From: Sphingomonas sp.
GTDB taxonomy: Bacteria > Pseudomonadota > Alphaproteobacteria > Sphingomonadales > Sphingomonadaceae
NCBI GenBank assembly: GCA_035776635.1
Contig: DASTWI010000020.1
Location: 3,483 to 67,482 of the forward strand
DNA length: 64,000 nucleotides
Direction: 5' to 3'
Below the pieces are notes generated by a model. The model did no database searches. It was not told the DNA's origin and saw only the letters and a list, made by a program, of their open reading frames with translations. Shown here piece by piece: positions 28,380 to 55,938 of the stretch. Numbering within the stretch: the stretch's first letter is position 1; each line of letters begins with the position of its first letter. Made by a program: the position numbers and the translations under genes.

Positions 28380-29534
28380 ATGAAAGCCTTGATCGCCGCA
28401 CCGGCCGCCATAATCCTTCTGTCGACCCCGACCATGGCGGAGGCGCCGCCCTTCGACACCCCGGCGACGGTAGCGTTCATGAAGGACTTGTCGTCGGGCG
28501 CGGTGCTCTATGCCAAGAACCCCGACCAGCGCGTCCCCCCGGCGTCGCTCGCCAAGACGATGACCGTCTATGTCGTGTTCGACATGATCAAGCATGGCGA
28601 CGTCAAGCTCGACCAGATGATCACCTTCCGGCCCGACACCTGGAAGAAATGGCACAGCCAGGGTTCGACGATGTTCATCTCGCCCAACGAGAGCATCAGC
28701 GTCGCCAACCTGCTCTACGGCATCATCACCTTGTCGGGGAACGACGCCTGCGTCGATCTCGCCGAGGGCGTGTCGGGCACCGAGGCCGCGTTCGTCCAGC
28801 GGATGAACGCCGAGGCGAAGAAGCTCGGCATGACCAACAGCCATTTCGGCACCTCGAACGGCTGGCCGGACGAGGGCGTCACCTATGTCACCGCGCGCGA
28901 CATGGTGACGCTGGCGACCGCGACGATCCAGAATTTCCCGAAACTCTACAAGCAGTTCTACGCCAAGCCCGACTTCACCTGGGGCCAGACGATGGGCGGC
29001 GAGGCGATCACGCAGGAGAATCGCGACCCGCTACTCGGCCGCGTCGCCGGGGCGGACGGGCTCAAGACCGGCCATACCGAGGAATCGGGCTACAGCGTGG
29101 TCGGCTCGGCCGAGCAGGACGGCCGCCGCCTCGTCATGATGATGAGCGGGATGCAGAGCTTCAACCAGCGGATCGAGCAGTCGGTCGCGTTCATGAACTG
29201 GGGCTTCCGCGCGTGGCAGGCGCGGCCGATCGTCGCCAAGGGCAAGCTGGTCGAGAAGGCTGCGGTGCAGGGCGGCGATTCGTCGACCGTGGCGCTGGTC
29301 GCGCCCGAGGACATCAAGGTGACGGTGCCCTCCGGTTCGTCGCCCGACATGCAGATCAAGGTGGTCTATCAGGGCCCGATCCAGGCGCCGATCAAGGCGG
29401 GCGACCACGTCGCCGACCTCGTCGTCACCACGCCGGATACCGGCGCGCAGACCATGCCGCTGGTCGCCGCGAACGACGTCGGCAAGGCCGGCTTCTTCCG
29501 CCGCGCGTGGAACGGCCTGCTGTCGCTGCTGTGA
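28380..29534 (+). CDS. dacA: D-alanyl-D-alanine carboxypeptidase
   Basis: SLAK (SxxK), SGN and KTG motifs; signal peptide. Confidence 0.93.
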   Translation: MKALIAAPAAIILLSTPTMAEAPPFDTPATVAFMKDLSSGAVLYAKNPDQRVPPASLAKTMTVYVVFDMIKHGDVKLDQMITFRPDTWKKWHSQGSTMFISPNESISVANLLYGIITLSGNDACVDLAEGVSGTEAAFVQRMNAEAKKLGMTNSHFGTSNGWPDEGVTYVTARDMVTLATATIQNFPKLYKQFYAKPDFTWGQTMGGEAITQENRDPLLGRVAGADGLKTGHTEESGYSVVGSAEQDGRRLVMMMSGMQSFNQRIEQSVAFMNWGFRAWQARPIVAKGKLVEKAAVQGGDSSTVALVAPEDIKVTVPSGSSPDMQIKVVYQGPIQAPIKAGDHVADLVVTTPDTGAQTMPLVAANDVGKAGFFRRAWNGLLSLL

Positions 29535-30160
29535 GCCGCGGCCGCTTCATCTCGCTCGAGGGCGGGGAGGGGGCCGGCAAGTCCACGCAGGCGACACGGC
29601 TGGCCGAGGCGCTGGCCGCACGCGGCATCGAGACGCTGGTGACGCGCGAGCCCGGCGGCAGCGAGGGCGCCGAGGCGATCCGGTCGCTCCTCATGCAGGG
29701 AGCCGTGACGCGGTGGAGCGCGCATAGCGAGGCGCTGCTGTTCGCCGCGGCGCGCGCGGATCATGTCGAAAAGCGCATCAGCCCCGCGCTCGGCGCCGGC
29801 CTGTGGGTGATCTCCGATCGCTTTATCGATTCGAGCCGCGCCTATCAGGGCCTCGCCGGCGGGATCGACGACGCCGCGATCCTCGCGCTGCACGGCTTCG
29901 GCTCGCGCGGCCTGCTCCCCGACCGCACCTTCGTCCTCGAAGTGCCGCACGACGAGGGCGCGGCGCGCGCGACCGGGCGCGACGGCGCCGCCGCCGACCG
30001 CTTCGCCGCGCGGGGGGAGGGGTTCCACGCCGACGTCGCCGCAGCCTTCCGCCGCTTCGCCGCCGACGAGCCCGACCGCATCCGCCTGATCGACGCAACC
30101 GGCACGCCCGAGGCCGTCACCATGCGCCTGCTCACCGGCCTCGCCGACCTGCTGCCATGA
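29531..30160 (+). CDS. tmk: Thymidylate kinase
   Basis: FISLEGGEGAGKST, TREPGG and DRFIDSSRAYQG motifs. Confidence 0.96.
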   Translation: MSRGRFISLEGGEGAGKSTQATRLAEALAARGIETLVTREPGGSEGAEAIRSLLMQGAVTRWSAHSEALLFAAARADHVEKRISPALGAGLWVISDRFIDSSRAYQGLAGGIDDAAILALHGFGSRGLLPDRTFVLEVPHDEGAARATGRDGAAADRFAARGEGFHADVAAAFRRFAADEPDRIRLIDATGTPEAVTMRLLTGLADLLP

Positions 30161-31227
30161 CGCCACTCGTCGGCAACGCCCGCGCGCAGCAGACCTTTCT
30201 CGCCGCGATGCATAGCGGCGCGCTCCACCACGCCTGGCTGTTCGCCGGCCCGCAAGGCGTGGGGAAGGGCGCCTTCGCCCGCTTGGCGGCGATGCGGATG
30301 CTGGCGGAAGCCGCCGGCGATCTCCCCCCTTCGTCACCCCGGCCCCCGAGCCGGGGTGAGGCTTCTTCTTTTTCTTTAGAGGAAGAAGGCAGCCCAACCC
30401 CGGGTCAAGCCCGGGGTGACGAGGTAGGAACTCTCGAAGTCCCCGAAGGCACCCGAACCCGCTCCCTCATCGAAGCCGGCTCACACCCCGATTACCGCGT
30501 GCTCGGGCGCTTGCCCAAGGATCCCGACAAGCCCGGCGAGGATCTCGCCCGCTCGATCCCGATCGCGCAGGTCCGCAGCCTGCAGCCGCTGTTCGCGACC
30601 ACGCCGTCGCTGTCGCCGCGCCGCGTCGTCATCATCGACGCGATCGACGACCTCGAGCGCGCCGCCGCCAATGCGCTCCTTAAGAACCTCGAGGAGCCGC
30701 CCGCCGGCACCATCTTCCTGCTCGTCAGCCACGCGCCCGGCCGCCTGCTGCCGACGATCCGCTCGCGCTGCCGTATCCTGCGCTTCGAGCCGCTGCCGGC
30801 GGACGTGCTGGCCGACGAGCTCGCCCGCCGCCTGCCCGACGCCCCGCGCGAGGAGATCGCCGCGGTCGTCGCCAGCGCCAAGGGCTCGCTCGGCCGCGCG
30901 CTCGATTTCGCCGGCCTCGACATCTCCGGCCTCGAAAAGGCGCTGCACACCATCGCGGCCACCGGCGACCCGACCAACGCCGAACGCTCTGCCCTCGCGA
31001 AGAGCCTCGCCCTCAAGGCCCAGCAACACCGCTACGAAGCCTTCCTCGACCGCGCCCCCGCCTTCATCGCCGAAGCCGCAACGACGCGGGCAGGGGAGGC
31101 CCTGCGCACCGCCCTCGACGCCCACGAAGCCGCCCGCGCGCTGGCGGCAAGCGCCCGCGGCCTGTCGCTCGACCAGCGGGCGAGCGTGTATGAGATGGCG
31201 GGGCTGGTGGCGCGGTTGAGCCGCTAG
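30157..31227 (+). CDS. holB: DNA polymerase III subunit delta-prime with an in-frame repeat-derived insertion
   Basis: HHAWLFAGPQGVGK, GSHPD, NALLKNLEEPP, LLPTIRSRC; lies between tmk and metG. Confidence 0.93.
   Translation: MTPLVGNARAQQTFLAAMHSGALHHAWLFAGPQGVGKGAFARLAAMRMLAEAAGDLPPSSPRPPSRGEASSFSLEEEGSPTPGQARGDEVGTLEVPEGTRTRSLIEAGSHPDYRVLGRLPKDPDKPGEDLARSIPIAQVRSLQPLFATTPSLSPRRVVIIDAIDDLERAAANALLKNLEEPPAGTIFLLVSHAPGRLLPTIRSRCRILRFEPLPADVLADELARRLPDAPREEIAAVVASAKGSLGRALDFAGLDISGLEKALHTIAATGDPTNAERSALAKSLALKAQQHRYEAFLDRAPAFIAEAATTRAGEALRTALDAHEAARALAASARGLSLDQRASVYEMAGLVARLSR
30331..30422. repeat. 92-bp palindromic element (TCGTCACCCCGG...CCGGGGTGACGA) inside holB
   Basis: 12-bp perfect terminal inverted repeats, two GC hairpins and an AT-rich centre. 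Confidence 0.85.
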
Positions 31228-31230
31228 AGC

Positions 31231-31611
31231 TTAGCGCCAGTCATCAGTGTAATCTCGGACTGGGTTGAGACGCTCGGTTAGGCGAGCAATCCCATTTTGT
31301 AGGTCATATGACTGACTTTGGAGCTGCTGAACCTGCTGTTCCAGCAATTGAGCACGCCGTTCAGTAATTAGTGCGAAGGTATGTGTCTCGAATAAAGCTT
31401 TTTCGGTGGACCACTGAATGACACCGGACAAACTGAAAATTACTATGGCTAATGCGACGTGAGAACCTGTCATGCCAAACCAGATGAGGCATGGAAGGAA
31501 CGGTAGTCCGGAAAACAGAGAGGCTCTGCGCACCCATTTCCGGTCTTCTTTGCGGTCCCTAATGATGGCGCTAGCGTTGATGTCGCCGTCGACTGACCCC
31601 CACTCGTCCAT
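31231..31611 (-). CDS. Low-GC hypothetical protein (two hydrophobic segments, C-terminal coiled coil)
   Basis: 126-aa ORF filling the gap between holB and metG; GGAG ribosome-binding site; 25/60 GC at 31381-31440. Confidence 0.65.
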   Translation of the reverse strand: MDEWGSVDGDINASAIIRDRKEDRKWVRRASLFSGLPFLPCLIWFGMTGSHVALAIVIFSLSGVIQWSTEKALFETHTFALITERRAQLLEQQVQQLQSQSYDLQNGIARLTERLNPVRDYTDDWR

Positions 31612-36273: not shown

Positions 36274-36350
36274 GTGCTCCTGCGAAAGCAGGAGCCCAGG
36301 GAACAAGCGGCGTTCCCCGAGATTCTGGGCTCCTGCTTTCGCAGGAGCAC
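36274..36350. repeat. REP-like doublet, family A, between convergent mazG and hflX (likely bidirectional terminator/stabiliser)
   Basis: Perfect 26-bp inverted arms GTGCTCCTGCGAAAGCAGGAGCCCAG. Confidence 0.85.
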
Positions 36351-50703: not shown

Positions 50704-50837
50704 CCGTTCGTGCTGAGTAGAGGCCGAGTAGCTGCGAAGCAGCGTATCGAGGCCTCGTATCGAAGCACTCCTATGTCCTTCGATACGCAGCCTCGATACG
50801 CCCTTCGGGCTACTCGGCAGCTACTCAGGACGAACGG
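50704..50837. repeat. Long family B-related palindromic element
   Basis: CCGTTCGTGCTGAGTAG...CTACTCAGGACGAACGG with internal CGAGTAGC/GCTACTCG and CGTATCGA/TCGATACG inverted repeats. Confidence 0.8.
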
Positions 50838-53941: not shown

Positions 53942-54297
53942 AGTCGAATCCTGCAGCCGTTCGGGCTGAGCCTGTCGAAGCCCGGTTCCGCCGATCGCCC
54001 TTCGACACGCTCAGGGCGAACGGAGCGCTGGGACTGGGATTGTTCCTCGCCGCCTGCGCCGCCGCGCAACCGCCCCTCGCCCACGGCAGCGGCGCCATCT
54101 GCAAGGCGGACGGCCTATCGGATCTCGTCGGCCGGCCCGCCACCGCCGACCTCGGCGCCGCGGCGCTCAAGCGCTCCGGCGCGCGCACGCTGCGCTGGAT
54201 CCAGCCCGGCATGGCGGTGACGATGGACTATCGCCAGGACCGGCTCGACGTGCATCTCGACGCGCGCAACGTCGTCACCAAGCTGAGCTGCGGCTGA
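53938..54297 (+). CDS. I78 family peptidase-inhibitor-like lipoprotein with a repeat-derived signal-peptide extension
   Basis: GGAGGA ribosome-binding site, ATGA coupling to rnd, lipobox LAAC, MAVTMDYRQDRLDV...CG C-terminus. Confidence 0.85.
   Translation: MKSNPAAVRAEPVEARFRRSPFDTLRANGALGLGLFLAACAAAQPPLAHGSGAICKADGLSDLVGRPATADLGAAALKRSGARTLRWIQPGMAVTMDYRQDRLDVHLDARNVVTKLSCG
53957..54023. repeat. Family B element inside the I78 gene
   Basis: CCGTTCGGGCTGAGCCTGTCGAAG...CTTCGACACGCTCAGGGCGAACGG. Confidence 0.85.
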
Positions 54298-54303
54298 AAC
54301 CAG

Positions 54304-54376
54304 TATTCCTGCGAAAGCAGGAATCCAGGATCGCAAGCGCACCGCTCATCATCTGGGCTCCTGCTTTCGCAGGAGC
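54304..54376. repeat. Family A REP doublet between convergent I78 gene and ppx
   Basis: TATTCCTGCGAAAGCAGGAATCCAG...CTGGGCTCCTGCTTTCGCAGGAGC. Confidence 0.82.
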
Positions 54377-54384
54377 CCGGTGGC

Positions 54385-55938
54385 TCACCCCACCACCATC
54401 CGCGCCTCGCCGCCGAGCGCCGCGGCGAGCGCCTTGTGCCGCCGCTCGACCGTCTCGCCGTACAGCGCCGCATCGCTCCCCGCGAGCGTCAGCGTCACCG
54501 CCCCGCCCTCGCGCCCCAGCCGCGCGCGCTCCAGCGGCCCCGCGACCCCGCCGCTCAGCCGCTGCCCCAGCCGGACCGCCAGCCCCCACGCCGCCGCTCG
54601 CCTGAGCTCACGCTCGCCGGCCAGCCTGCCCAGCGGCTCGGGCGACTTCGCGCCACCGCCCAGCCCGGTGAACAGCGCCTGCGCCACCAGGGCCCGCCCG
54701 CGCGCGTCGATCGCCACCCAGTCGCCGTGCAACGCAACATCGAGCCCGCGCTCGGCGCGGAACTCGGGATTGGCATGCCATCCCACGTCGGCGAGCAGGC
54801 ACGCCGCATGTCTCAGCCGCGCCAGCTCCGGCGCATCCTCCCCGAATAGCGGCGCGATCCAGCGATCGAGCAAATCGCCATGCTCGGCGAACCGCCCCAG
54901 CCGCCGCCCCTCGTCGCGCGTCGCGACGATCAGCGGGTCCTCGCCCCGCGTCGCCTCGTCGAGCGCGCCGTAGAGCAGCCCCTCGCGCAAGCCGTAAGCC
55001 GACACCAATGTCGTCGCGCATCCCAGCTGCCGCAGCACCACGCCAAGCAGCGCCGCAGCATCGCCCAGCGTCGGAATCCGCGCGGCCGACAGATCGGGCA
55101 CCTCGCGCAGCCGCGCCTTGTCGAGATGCGCCAGCGCGCGCCCCAGCCGCGTCACCGTCGCCGCCGGCATCGAATAGGCGTGGACGATCGGCAGCGGATA
55201 GCCGGTCAGGTGCATGTCAAGCCGCGCCAGCGAGCGCCACGACCCGCCGACCAGGTAGAAGGGCCGCCCCGCTCCGCTCCCCGCCCAGCCGGTCTTCGCG
55301 AGCACCGTTGCGACATGCCGTTCGAGCGCGCCCTTGCCGCGCGCGCGGATCGCCGCGATCCTCAGCACGCCGAGCGGAAACGACGCCCGCTCGCCGACCG
55401 CACCGCCCGCAACGCGCACCAGCTCCAGGCTGCCGCCGCCGAGGTCGCCGACGATTCCCTCGGCCTCCGGAATCCCCGACAGCACGCCCCGCCCGGCCGC
55501 CAGCGCTTCCTCGTCCCCCGACAGCAGCGCGACGTCGAGCCCAAGGCCGCGCGCATGGTCGATCAGCTCGTGCCCGTTGGCCGCCTCGCGCACCGCGGCG
55601 GTGGCGACGGTGCTGAGCTCGGTGACGTCCATCTCGCGCGCGATCGCCGCGAACCGCGCCAGCGCTCCTTGCGCGCGCGCCATTGCCGCGGCGTCGATCG
55701 CGCCCTTCACCGCCAGCTCGCGGCCGAGCCCGGCCATCACCTTCTCGTTGAACAGGATCGAGGGCAGCCGCTTGGGTCCCTGATAGACGACGAGACGGAT
55801 CGAGTTCGATCCGATGTCGATGATCGCGGTGCGCGGGTGCGCCGCCGCCCGATGCTCCTGCGCAAGCAGGAGCCCGGGACCACCGGCCCGAACCTCGCCT
55901 TGGGCCCCTGCTTGCGCAGGAGCACGCGCCCCCGTCAT
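54385..55938 (-). CDS. ppx: Ppx/GppA exopolyphosphatase with a repeat-derived N-terminal segment
   Basis: IIDIGSNSIRL, ATAAVREA, DLGGGSLE and GLREG motifs; downstream of ppk. Confidence 0.93.
   Translation of the reverse strand: MTGARAPAQAGAQGEVRAGGPGLLLAQEHRAAAHPRTAIIDIGSNSIRLVVYQGPKRLPSILFNEKVMAGLGRELAVKGAIDAAAMARAQGALARFAAIAREMDVTELSTVATAAVREAANGHELIDHARGLGLDVALLSGDEEALAAGRGVLSGIPEAEGIVGDLGGGSLELVRVAGGAVGERASFPLGVLRIAAIRARGKGALERHVATVLAKTGWAGSGAGRPFYLVGGSWRSLARLDMHLTGYPLPIVHAYSMPAATVTRLGRALAHLDKARLREVPDLSAARIPTLGDAAALLGVVLRQLGCATTLVSAYGLREGLLYGALDEATRGEDPLIVATRDEGRRLGRFAEHGDLLDRWIAPLFGEDAPELARLRHAACLLADVGWHANPEFRAERGLDVALHGDWVAIDARGRALVAQALFTGLGGGAKSPEPLGRLAGERELRRAAAWGLAVRLGQRLSGGVAGPLERARLGREGGAVTLTLAGSDAALYGETVERRHKALAAALGGEARMVVG
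55854..55925. repeat. Family A REP doublet inside the ppx 5' coding region
   Basis: GCTCCTGCGCAAGCAGGAGCCC...GGGCCCCTGCTTGCGCAGGAGCAC; 72 bp. Confidence 0.85.

What the first reader, a model, noticed from the sequence alone, without database searches (positions are those of the whole stretch)
30331..30422. 92-bp palindromic element translated inside DNA polymerase III delta-prime
Seen: 12-bp terminal inverted repeats TCGTCACCCCGG/CCGGGGTGACGA, two GC hairpins and an AT-rich core (CTTCTTCTTTTTCTTTAGAGGAAGAAG). It encodes SSPRPPSRGEASSFSLEEEGSPTPGQARGDE between the Walker A-like motif and GSHPD. Known: this segment corresponds to the zinc-module region of E. coli HolB, and no Cys cluster is present here. 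Inference: a ~31-aa insertion tolerated in an exposed loop of an essential clamp-loader subunit.
Basis: partly seen in the sequence, partly recalled or inferred. Interest (0 to 1): 0.72.

Follow-up and report, generated by a model that had tools for sequence, protein, structure and literature searches.

The report
Known palindromic repeat inside holB
A 93-base copy of a small, genome-wide hairpin repeat (a CGTC-tagged REP doublet, a kind described in 2013) sits in frame in the essential clamp-loader gene holB of a Sphingomonas and is read as a 31-residue floppy loop. It is real and datable, but it is a new example of a published phenomenon.

Summary
Window 30331-30422 is a near-perfect palindrome (RNA fold -70 kcal/mol, z -7.3). 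It lies in frame in holB (30157-31227) as 31 extra codons (30331-30423).

All 23 same-genus reference HolB proteins lack it. Thirteen metagenome relatives (83-92% identical) carry it, in intact, decayed, expanded or internally deleted form. It is therefore an old, translated insertion and not an assembly artefact.

AlphaFold gives pLDDT below 50 for residues 60-91. These lie between the P-loop helix and the GSHPD helix, where E. coli delta-prime has its zinc module.

The element is a head-to-head dimer of CGTC-tagged REPs (Di Nocera et al. 2013), built as CGTC tag, 8-bp stem, 5-6-nt loop and 39-nt spacer. The genome holds at least 25 such dimers. Two more are in frame, in ileS and a dnaE2-like gene, which are gene classes the 2013 paper already lists. 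I found no RAYT gene and no target duplication.

Small GIY-YIG (Ssn-like) genes are flanked by these REPs. One in a sister genome is flanked by exactly the holB-type REP.

One point stays unexplained: a separate HolB lineage carries a fresher copy at the same codon.

Verdict: new member of a known kind, modest interest.

The parts
30157..31227 (+). holB (DNA polymerase III delta-prime), 356 aa. Its start overlaps the tmk stop (ATGA).
   Evidence: PF13177, E 2e-35; E. coli delta-prime 1A5T, E 1.4e-15; top fold hit 1A5T.
30331..30423 (+). The inserted segment: 93 nt, codons 59-89 (SSPRPPSRGEASSFSLEEEGSPTPGQARGDE).
   Evidence: It is absent from 23 same-genus HolB proteins and from P0017-19, 21-23 and 29, all with colinear flanks. 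pLDDT is below 50 for residues 60-91.
30332..30357 (+). Left REP unit: tag CGTC (30332-35), stem ACCCCGGC (30336-43), 6-nt loop CCCCGA (30344-49), stem GCCGGGGT (30350-57).
   Evidence: coordinates. The architecture follows PMC3733652. The loop is 1 nt longer than the canonical CTTGA, and this removes the in-frame TGA.
30358..30396 (.). 39-nt spacer with its own inverted repeat, CTTCTTC (30362-68) and GAAGAAG (30382-88). It is AT-rich relative to the genome.
   Evidence: Spacers differ between copies of the family.
30397..30421 (-). Right REP unit, read on the minus strand: CGTC ACCCCGGG CTTGA CCCGGGGT. On the plus strand: stem 30397-404, loop TCAAG 30405-09, stem 30410-17, tag GACG 30418-21.
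   Evidence: It is 100% identical over 25-26 nt to copies on contigs C64 and C30 of the same genome.
29531..30160 (+). tmk (thymidylate kinase), the upstream gene of the conserved dacC-tmk-holB-metG block. The start coordinate is approximate.
   Evidence: open frame ending at 30160 with the GGEGAGKST motif. The same gene order is called in the relatives' contigs.

Best explanation
**What it is.** The element is a head-to-head (tags outward) dimer of CGTC-tagged REP hairpins. This is the repeat class of Di Nocera, De Gregorio and Rocco (2013), which overlaps the Ssn-related motifs of the 2025 Ssn paper.

**What happened (inferred).** One copy entered holB in an ancestor of this species-level clade. 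It survived in an essential gene for three reasons:
- it added a multiple of three bases (93 nt);
- this particular variant has no stop codon in the frame used, because the left loop is 6 nt rather than the canonical CTTGA, which would read TGA here;
- it landed in a short variable surface loop of domain I. That loop sits at the place where E. coli delta-prime has its zinc module, which Sphingomonas HolB lacks anyway.

**What it does now.** It is translated as a 31-residue hydrophilic, disordered loop and drifts as weakly constrained sequence.

**Shown here:** the insertion itself; family membership; in-frame persistence across many diverged orthologues; decay and partial deletion in some of them; the predicted disordered loop.

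**Inferred:** neutrality for clamp-loader function, and the way the copy got there.

**Most likely agent.** The element family is probably the cognate ssDNA hairpin of small GIY-YIG (Ssn-like) nucleases, whose genes are flanked by the same REPs. Whether those enzymes move the repeats is not shown, here or in print.
For: **It is an insertion.**
- All same-genus HolB matches split into residues 1-~54 and ~93-355, with 0-24 nt between the two pieces. These proteins are 313-346 aa against 356 here.
- The empty sites of P0017, P0018 and P0022 align codon for codon.

**It is translated and old.**
- Thirteen relatives at 83-92% identity keep an open frame through a segment that varies in length and sequence.
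- P0014's palindrome has decayed (-28.6 kcal/mol) and carries a TCT expansion. P0015 and P0016 keep 12- and 10-aa remnants.
- The insertion diverges faster than the rest of the gene: 80% vs 88% identity, and 61% vs 83%.

**It is a surface loop.** AlphaFold pLDDT is 26-35 for residues 60-91, between helices 37-53 and 100-106. The position maps to E. coli delta-prime residues 45-65.

**It belongs to the family.**
- CGTC tag, 8-bp stem beginning with A, 5-6-nt loop, tags outside, 39-nt spacer, matching PMC3733652.
- The genome has 107 CGTC hairpins against 21 in the control, and 25 head-to-head (HH) dimers plus 21 single units.
- The arm motif occurs in 20 of 24 same-genus genomes, 0-176 per genome, and on Sphingobium, Novosphingobium and Sphingomonas plasmids.

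**There are other in-frame copies.** One is in ileS and one in a dnaE2-like gene of this genome. Empty sites are seen in relatives or in a paralogue.

**There is a nuclease link.**
- Three small GIY-YIG ORFs in this genome are flanked on both sides by CGTC REPs.
- In sister genome G013, a 105-aa GIY-YIG ORF is flanked by CGTC-ACCCCGGCC-TTG-AGCCGGGGT-CCA, the holB-type unit.
Against: - Translation is inferred from frame conservation only.
- Neutrality is untested. A -70 kcal/mol hairpin 175 nt into an essential mRNA could affect expression.
- The holB arms do not match the published degenerate SRM search pattern, although a sister subfamily does.
- This genome has no GIY-YIG gene flanked by the ACCCCGGC-type REP itself.
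- P0020, in a separate HolB clade (support 100/98), has a near-consensus copy with the same rare 6-nt-loop variant at the same codon (+/-1). A single old passive insertion does not explain this.
Confidence: 0.9

Rival explanations
1. Co-opted insertion. The peptide (acidic, Ser/Pro-rich, ending in RGDE) or the mRNA or ssDNA hairpin now does something useful. It might tune holB expression in the tmk-holB operon, mark holB ssDNA for an Ssn-like nuclease, or modify the clamp loader.
For: The insertion has persisted across a clade down to about 83% HolB identity. The end motifs SPRP.SRG and RGD(E) are kept in most carriers. The hairpin is very stable. The 2013 paper notes an excess of intragenic REPs in replication and repair genes.
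Against: The kept motifs are simply the translated REP stems. P0014 has lost both the motifs and the hairpin. P0015 and P0016 deleted two thirds of the segment and kept the gene. The segment evolves faster than the gene. Close relatives and the whole genus do without it. The model is disordered there.
Confidence: 0.07
2. The holB site is a true insertion hotspot. The family inserts with sequence or structure preference, so the own clade and the P0020 lineage were hit independently at the same codon.
For: - P0020 groups with the empty P0022 and P0023 (support 100/98).
- Its flanks resemble P0022 on both sides right up to the insert.
- Its copy is near consensus (-67 kcal/mol), and it is more similar to the own-clade copies (81-85%) than the genes are to each other (71-72%).
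- Loops in IleS and DnaE2 are also hit repeatedly.
Against: - The repeatedly hit IleS and DnaE2 loops hold different repeat families and orientations. That pattern points to a selection filter (permissive loops) rather than targeting.
- Both holB copies share the rare 6-nt left loop, which is easier to explain by common descent or transfer.
- No target consensus or duplication was found at 25 dimers.
- The HolB tree is from one gene of about 310 columns.
Confidence: 0.35
3. Not an insertion. The segment is an ancestral HolB loop lost elsewhere, or it is an assembly artefact or chimera.
For: None beyond the fact that read support could not be checked.
Against: The same element is found in independent JGI and ENA metagenome contigs. 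The segment is a member of a dispersed, mostly intergenic repeat family. Empty orthologues align without a gap elsewhere. Sphingomonadales outside the genus also lack it.
Confidence: 0.02

Closest known systems
CGTC-tagged REPs, head-to-head dimers (Di Nocera, De Gregorio and Rocco 2013, BMC Genomics 14:522, PMC3733652)
   Same: - Terminal CGTC tag, 8-bp stem starting with A, about 5-nt loop, and dimers with the tags outside separated by 20-100 bp spacers that often have complementary ends.
- Mainly in Alphaproteobacteria, including S. wittichii, S. alaskensis, E. litoralis and N. aromaticivorans. No dedicated tyrosine transposase.
- Intragenic dimers encoding 20-30 aa, notably in dnaE2 and tRNA-synthetase genes. 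E. litoralis dnaE2 reads RHPGLDPGSRF...GPRLGDRGD, the same translated arms as here.
   Different: holB is not among the listed host genes. In this copy the left loop is 6 nt. The 3-nt tails (GAG and TGG) have drifted from the family's CCA/CCC. The second stem pair is C-G, not A-T.
Ssn-related motifs (SRM/NTS) and Ssn GIY-YIG ssDNA nucleases (Nat Commun 2025;16:2388, PMC11893778)
   Same: CGTC-tagged hairpins flank small single-domain GIY-YIG genes on both sides. This holds for three such genes in this genome and for one in sister genome G013, whose flanking hairpins are the holB-type REP. The paper names Sphingomonas and Rhizorhabdus wittichii among SRM-rich taxa.
   Different: The holB arms fail the paper's degenerate SRM pattern, while the ACCCCGGA sister subfamily passes. 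Membership of the local proteins in cd10448 could not be tested. The paper shows cleavage and an effect on transformation in Neisseria, not mobility or in-frame insertions.
Rickettsia palindromic elements (RPE; Ogata et al. 2000 Science 290:347, as reviewed in PMC10969869)
   Same: Palindromic repeats inserted in frame in conserved, often essential genes, read as extra surface peptides compatible with fold and function. RPE-4 and RPE-6 are themselves CGTC-4 and CGTC-1 REPs.
   Different: The host is a free-living, GC-rich soil-type bacterium. Only about 3 of 46 units are intragenic here, against nearly half for RPE-1. The sequence is unrelated to RPE-1.
REPINs mobilised by RAYT transposases (Bertels and Rainey 2011; Nunvar et al. 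2010; from my own knowledge)
   Same: Inverted REP doublets form one long hairpin. The arms are conserved and the spacer is variable. There is no target-site duplication.
   Different: The tag is CGTC, not GTAG. No Y1_Tnp/RAYT gene was found in this genome or in the two sister genomes with about 80 dimers each.

Membership tests
CGTC-tagged REP (Di Nocera 2013) | Unpaired CGTC (or TGTC/CCTC) tag at one end of the hairpin | tested here: met
   CGTC at 30332-35 and GACG at 30418-21. All 11 first-found copies end in (c/t)GTCA...TGACg.
CGTC-tagged REP (Di Nocera 2013) | Stem of 8-9 bp with A-T as first pair (and usually second), loop of 4-5 nt, 3-nt tail near CCA | tested here: inconclusive
   Both stems are 8 bp with A-T as the first pair. 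The second pair is C-G. The right loop is 5 nt and the left loop 6 nt. The tails are GAG and TGG in this copy, but CCC or CCA in other copies and in partner units such as CGTC-ATGCCGGA-CTTGT-TCCGGCAT-CCA.
CGTC-tagged REP (Di Nocera 2013) | Dispersed multi-copy family, mostly head-to-head (HH) dimers (tags outside) with 20-100 bp spacers, mostly extragenic | tested here: met
   107 tagged hairpins against 21 in the control. 25 HH dimers and 21 single units, no TT dimers (units listed). The spacer here is 39 nt. 3 units are intragenic. All 19 sampled copies in G008 are intergenic.
CGTC-tagged REP (Di Nocera 2013) | No associated tyrosine transposase | tested here: met
   PF01797 gave no hit in the own genome and hits in only 1 of 24 same-genus genomes, which is not one of the high-copy ones.
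Ssn/SRM system (PMC11893778) | Hairpin matches the published degenerate SRM pattern HGTCWYN(0-2)YYVSBRHN(0-5)WNVSBRGN(0-2)RNCYNB | tested here: not met
   Neither holB arm matches. The ACCCCGGA-stem sister subfamily does. Genome-wide there are 73 matches against 11 in the control.
Ssn/SRM system (PMC11893778) | Small single-domain GIY-YIG gene flanked on both sides by the motif | tested here: met
   In G000: C38:626-841, C44:16067-16282 and C15:81330-81554, flanked by related CGTC REPs. In G013: a 105-aa ORF flanked by the holB-type REP on both sides. Membership in cd10448 is not testable here, and NCBIfam gave no hit.
Ssn/SRM system (PMC11893778) | Nuclease cuts ssDNA next to its motif | not testable with these tools
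   Needs purified protein and oligonucleotides.
Rickettsia palindromic elements | Palindromic repeat inserted in frame in conserved genes and tolerated on the protein surface | tested here: met
   holB, ileS and a dnaE2-like gene. Disordered loop.
Rickettsia palindromic elements | Sequence membership in RPE-1 to RPE-10 | not tested
   Only the statement in print that RPE-4 and RPE-6 are CGTC-4 and CGTC-1.
REPIN/RAYT | GTAG-tagged REP doublets with a cognate RAYT gene | tested here: not met
   The tag is CGTC. No RAYT was found.
MITE | Terminal inverted repeats plus a target-site duplication, derived from an IS with matching ends | tested here: not met
   Inverted ends are present. 20 of 25 dimers have no flanking direct repeat and the longest is 3 nt. 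No annotated transposase lies next to copies on a Sphingomonas plasmid.

The most novel reading that the evidence does not exclude
The head-to-head dimers may be non-autonomous derivatives of REP-GIY-YIG(Ssn)-REP cassettes that still move in Sphingomonas. In this reading they move without target duplication and with a real target preference.

Two observations leave this open:
- The same holB codon was hit twice by the same rare stop-free variant, in two HolB lineages that are 72% identical.
- The 130-bp elements of G008 share the extended terminal repeat ...GGGGTCCATCG/CGATGGACCCC... with the G013 cassette.

If true, this would name the long-missing mobilising enzyme of CGTC REPs.
Probability: 0.2. 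Interest if true: 0.6.

Novelty: new member of a known kind. Interest (0 to 1): 0.3.

Why it matters
As an instance, it adds the clamp-loader subunit delta-prime to the replication and repair proteins known to carry translated REP dimers. It also comes with an unusually complete natural series: empty site, fresh copy, drifting copy, expanded copy and two internally deleted remnants. That series shows how selfish hairpin DNA turns into ordinary protein loop sequence.

It marks the former zinc-module loop of delta-prime as freely expandable. The side observations bear on an open question, namely what moves CGTC REPs. The relevant ones are the pairing of one REP type with one GIY-YIG gene, and the same codon being occupied in two lineages. 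None of this changes the class of the element.

Tried and rejected
- **Rfam.** A scan of 30200-30550 at E up to 10 gave only sub-threshold miRNA-like hairpin matches. No known RNA family fits.
- **RAYT/REPIN model.** No PF01797 hit where it would be needed.
- **MITE model.** No target-site duplications.
- **First motif search.** It used the wrong spacing and found nothing. It was replaced by BLAST and regular expressions.
- **Gene calling by GC3 alone.** This was misleading in a 67% GC genome. It was replaced by GC1/2/3 pattern plus inspection. One apparent fourth intragenic copy (C17:126863) proved to be a non-coding Arg-rich frame.
- **Literature search by raw sequence strings.** Nothing relevant was found.
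- **NCBIfam and PDB sequence searches of the small GIY-YIG proteins.** No hits.
- **Missing data.** Two relatives' contigs (P0007, P0012) returned no DNA.
- **Intein or intron.** Rejected. The segment is 93 nt with no such motifs, and the frame is kept open in every diverged carrier.

Full report
**1. The observation**

- As RNA the stretch folds into one long hairpin of -70.2 kcal/mol. Shuffles give -43.3 +/- 3.7, so z is -7.3 and 0 of 200 shuffles do as well.
- With DNA parameters the values are -32.2 kcal/mol and z -6.3.

holB runs from 30157 to 31227 (356 aa). Its ATG overlaps the tmk stop. It matches Pfam DNA_pol3_delta2 at 2e-35 and E. coli delta-prime by sequence and by fold (1A5T is the top hit).

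The element begins at the first base of codon 59. With base 30423 it makes 31 codons, SSPRPPSRGEASSFSLEEEGSPTPGQARGDE.

**2. It is an insertion, it is translated, and it is old**

In 23 same-genus reference genomes every HolB match breaks into residues 1-~54 and ~93-355, with 0-24 nt between the pieces. Those proteins are 313-346 aa.

A search of the large protein collection found a tight clade of metagenome HolBs that carry the segment. They are P0002-P0014, 83-92% identical and 348-374 aa long. It also found two with short remnants (P0015, P0016) and close relatives without it (P0017-19, P0021, 325 aa or less).

At the DNA level:
- P0002 and P0004 still fold well (-52 and -57 kcal/mol). P0004 is closer to the family consensus than the window's copy.
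- P0014 has lost the palindrome (-28.6 kcal/mol) and has grown a TCT run.
- P0015 keeps one hybrid hairpin (12 aa).
- P0016 keeps only the left unit (10 aa).
- P0017, P0018 and P0022 show the empty site, aligned codon for codon.

All carriers keep the frame open through sequences that differ by indels. That is what translation predicts and what an RNA-level removal does not.

Within the clade the segment diverges faster than the rest of the gene: 80% vs 88% identity to P0004, and 61% vs 83% to P0014. It is therefore weakly constrained.

The presence of the same insertion in independent JGI and ENA contigs excludes an assembly artefact.

**3. Where it sits in the protein**

AlphaFold2 on the 24-sequence alignment gave mean pLDDT 71.6. 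Residues 60-91 score below 50 (block means 26-35). They lie between helix 37-53, which follows the P-loop, and helix 100-106, which leads into GSHPD.

HMMER pairs query residue 44 with E. coli residue 44 and query 103 with E. coli 66. The insertion therefore lies where E. coli delta-prime has residues 45-65, the zinc module. The ligands C50, C59, C62 and C65 are from my own knowledge of the 1997 structure paper.

Sphingomonas HolB has 17 variable residues there and no cysteines. The insertion did not replace a zinc module; it expanded what was left of that loop.

**4. What the element is**

BLAST and pattern searches of the genome found a dispersed family. Each unit reads CGTC, then an 8-bp stem starting with A (ACCCCGGN or ATGCCGGA), then a 5-nt loop (CTTGA or CTTGT), then the return stem, then a 3-nt tail (CCC or CCA). 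Units are paired with the tags outward around a variable spacer of 20-70 nt that often has complementary ends.

This is the CGTC-tagged REP class of Di Nocera, De Gregorio and Rocco (PMC3733652). That paper describes:
- 8-9-bp stems beginning with A-T, 4-5-nt loops and CCA-like tails;
- mostly HH dimers, defined as tags outside, with 20-100 bp spacers;
- a distribution mainly in Alphaproteobacteria, including S. wittichii, S. alaskensis, E. litoralis and N. aromaticivorans;
- no dedicated transposase;

Its supplementary table lists an E. litoralis dnaE2 dimer that reads RHPGLDPGSRF...GPRLGDRGD, and an ileS dimer. RPE-4 and RPE-6 of Rickettsia belong to the same superfamily.

A strict census of this genome gives:
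- 107 tagged hairpins against 21 in a reversed-genome control;
- 25 HH dimers and 21 single units, many of which are half-decayed dimers.

The arm motif is present in 20 of 24 same-genus genomes at 0-176 copies per genome, with zero hits in the controls. Full elements occur on Sphingobium, Novosphingobium, Sphingomonas and Croceibacterium plasmids, where they are unannotated.

There is no RAYT gene in this genome, nor in the two sister genomes with about 80 dimers each. There are no target-site duplications: 20 of 25 dimers have none and the longest is 3 nt.

**5. Why this copy could survive in an essential gene**

In the frame used, a canonical left unit would read TCA CCC CGG CCT TGA, which ends in a stop. 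The holB copy has a 6-nt loop (CCCCGA), which removes the stop and makes the total length 93 nt. A similar 6-nt-loop variant exists intergenically, at C37:90893. Only 2 of the 6 frames of this copy are open (read directly from the sequence).

**6. Other in-frame copies**

- **ileS** (C50:70130-70212) carries LRHPGESRGRASSFEHGEGSPAPDQVRGDDG, from the same subfamily and the same right-arm frame. Four relatives have nothing at that site.
- **A dnaE2-like gene** at the end of contig C42 carries RHAGLVPAPTASQARSLRMEERPPEQVRGD. A paralogue on C17, 83-84% identical in the two flanking stretches, lacks it. G011 has a decayed copy in another orientation in the same loop, and G013 has a different repeat family there.
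- **A second IleS loop** holds a CGTC-1 dimer in G009, other repeat families in this genome, G007 and G008, and nothing in G014.

Permissive loops are therefore colonised repeatedly by several repeat families. A fourth candidate, C17:126863, is not coding. None of the 19 sampled copies in G008 is intragenic.

**7. The nuclease link**

Earlier notes of this scan pointed to Ssn GIY-YIG nucleases. The 2025 paper (PMC11893778) makes four relevant points:
- CGTC-tagged hairpins (NTS/SRM) flank ssnA homologues.
- Ssn proteins cut ssDNA next to their own motif.
- Sphingomonas is among the SRM-rich taxa.
- The motif-gene-motif layout looks like an insertion sequence.

I tested this here.
- This genome has eight small stand-alone GIY-YIG ORFs besides UvrC.
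- Three of them are flanked on both sides by CGTC REPs: C38:626-841 and C44:16067-16282 by dimers, and C15:81330-81554 by single units.
- In G013, a high-copy genome, a 105-aa GIY-YIG ORF is flanked by CGTC-ACCCCGGCC-TTG-AGCCGGGGT-CCA with the tags outward. That is the holB-type unit.
- Other GIY-YIG ORFs in G013 and G002 are each flanked by a different REP type.
- The G013 protein is 60% identical to the C44 and C38 proteins. This genome has no closer copy.
- The holB arms do not fit the paper's degenerate SRM pattern. The ACCCCGGA sister subfamily does.

Whether these nucleases move the repeats is not shown anywhere.

**8. What remains unexplained**

P0020 comes from a MAG whose HolB groups with the empty P0022 and P0023 (support 100/98). 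It has a near-consensus copy (-67 kcal/mol) at the same codon, within one position. The copy has the same rare 6-nt left loop, and its flanks resemble P0022 on both sides.

Three explanations remain open: independent hits on a preferred target, transfer of a very short tract, or an ancient gain with many precise losses and later homogenisation.

**9. Verdict**

The element is a new example (holB) of a published kind: intragenic CGTC REP dimers, the free-living counterpart of Rickettsia palindromic elements. Interest is modest. The useful extras are the natural decay series and the REP-to-nuclease pairing.

**Caveats**
- Coding and non-coding calls for the other copies rest on ORF and GC-position heuristics.
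- The genome is a 71-contig draft with 4.2% estimated contamination, so the C42 contig could come from a second strain.
- The HolB tree rests on about 310 columns.

Noticed in passing
genome contig C50:68671-72168 (ileS), outside the window: IleS carries two repeat-derived in-frame segments. One is a CGTC REP dimer at residues ~334-364. The other is a 40-aa segment (REREGPARVSAWEGEGRS...PLPKGEGN) from a different repeat family. The second segment sits in a loop that holds other repeats in sister genomes and in E. litoralis (per PMC3733652).
   Followed up: partly
genome contig C42:20932-22464 and C17:67290-67928: There are two dnaE2-like genes, 83-84% identical in the stretches flanking the insertion. 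Only the C42 copy, which is cut by the contig end, has the REP dimer. With 4.2% estimated contamination, C42 might come from a second strain.
   Followed up: partly
genome contigs C38:513-1006, C44:15953-16455, C15:81264-81662: REP-GIY-YIG-REP cassettes: ORFs of 102-114 aa flanked by CGTC REP dimers or single units. Five further small GIY-YIG ORFs were found: two of the same Ssn-like type (C13, C36) and three of a MAFWTYILRCADG... subtype, one of which (C41) is part of a longer 359-aa ORF.
   Followed up: partly
window 36274-36350, 54307-54374, 55853-55924: A second repeat family forms inverted doublets of GTGCTCCTGCGAAAGCAGGAGCCCAG. The copy at 55853-55924 lies at the 5' end of an ORF on the minus strand. 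An earlier first-stage note calls that ORF ppx.
   Followed up: no
window 50704-50837 and 53957-54023: A third family (CCGTTCG.GCTGAG...). Its translation ([10 protein letters not shown]-like) also appears inside DnaE2 of G013 and IleS of G008.
   Followed up: no
window 31231-31611 (minus strand): A low-GC 126-aa ORF lies between holB and metG. Relatives have different small ORFs (69-119 aa) or nothing in that gap.
   Followed up: no
L031-L044 (G008): G008 has a homogeneous 128-131-bp subfamily. Its 33-nt ends (CGTCACCCCGGACTTGTTCCGGGGTCCATCG) are perfectly conserved, but its ~70-nt centre is only loosely conserved and occurs in both orientations. The extended end matches the inner flanks of the G013 GIY-YIG cassette.
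   Followed up: partly
P0011, P0013, P0014 (HolB relatives); L073 (G011 DnaE2): Secondary growth inside resident insertions: a 20-aa extra block (P0011), a duplicated N-terminal part (P0013), a TCT/Ser run (P0014), and a (His-Ala)n run after the decayed copy in G011 DnaE2.
   Followed up: no
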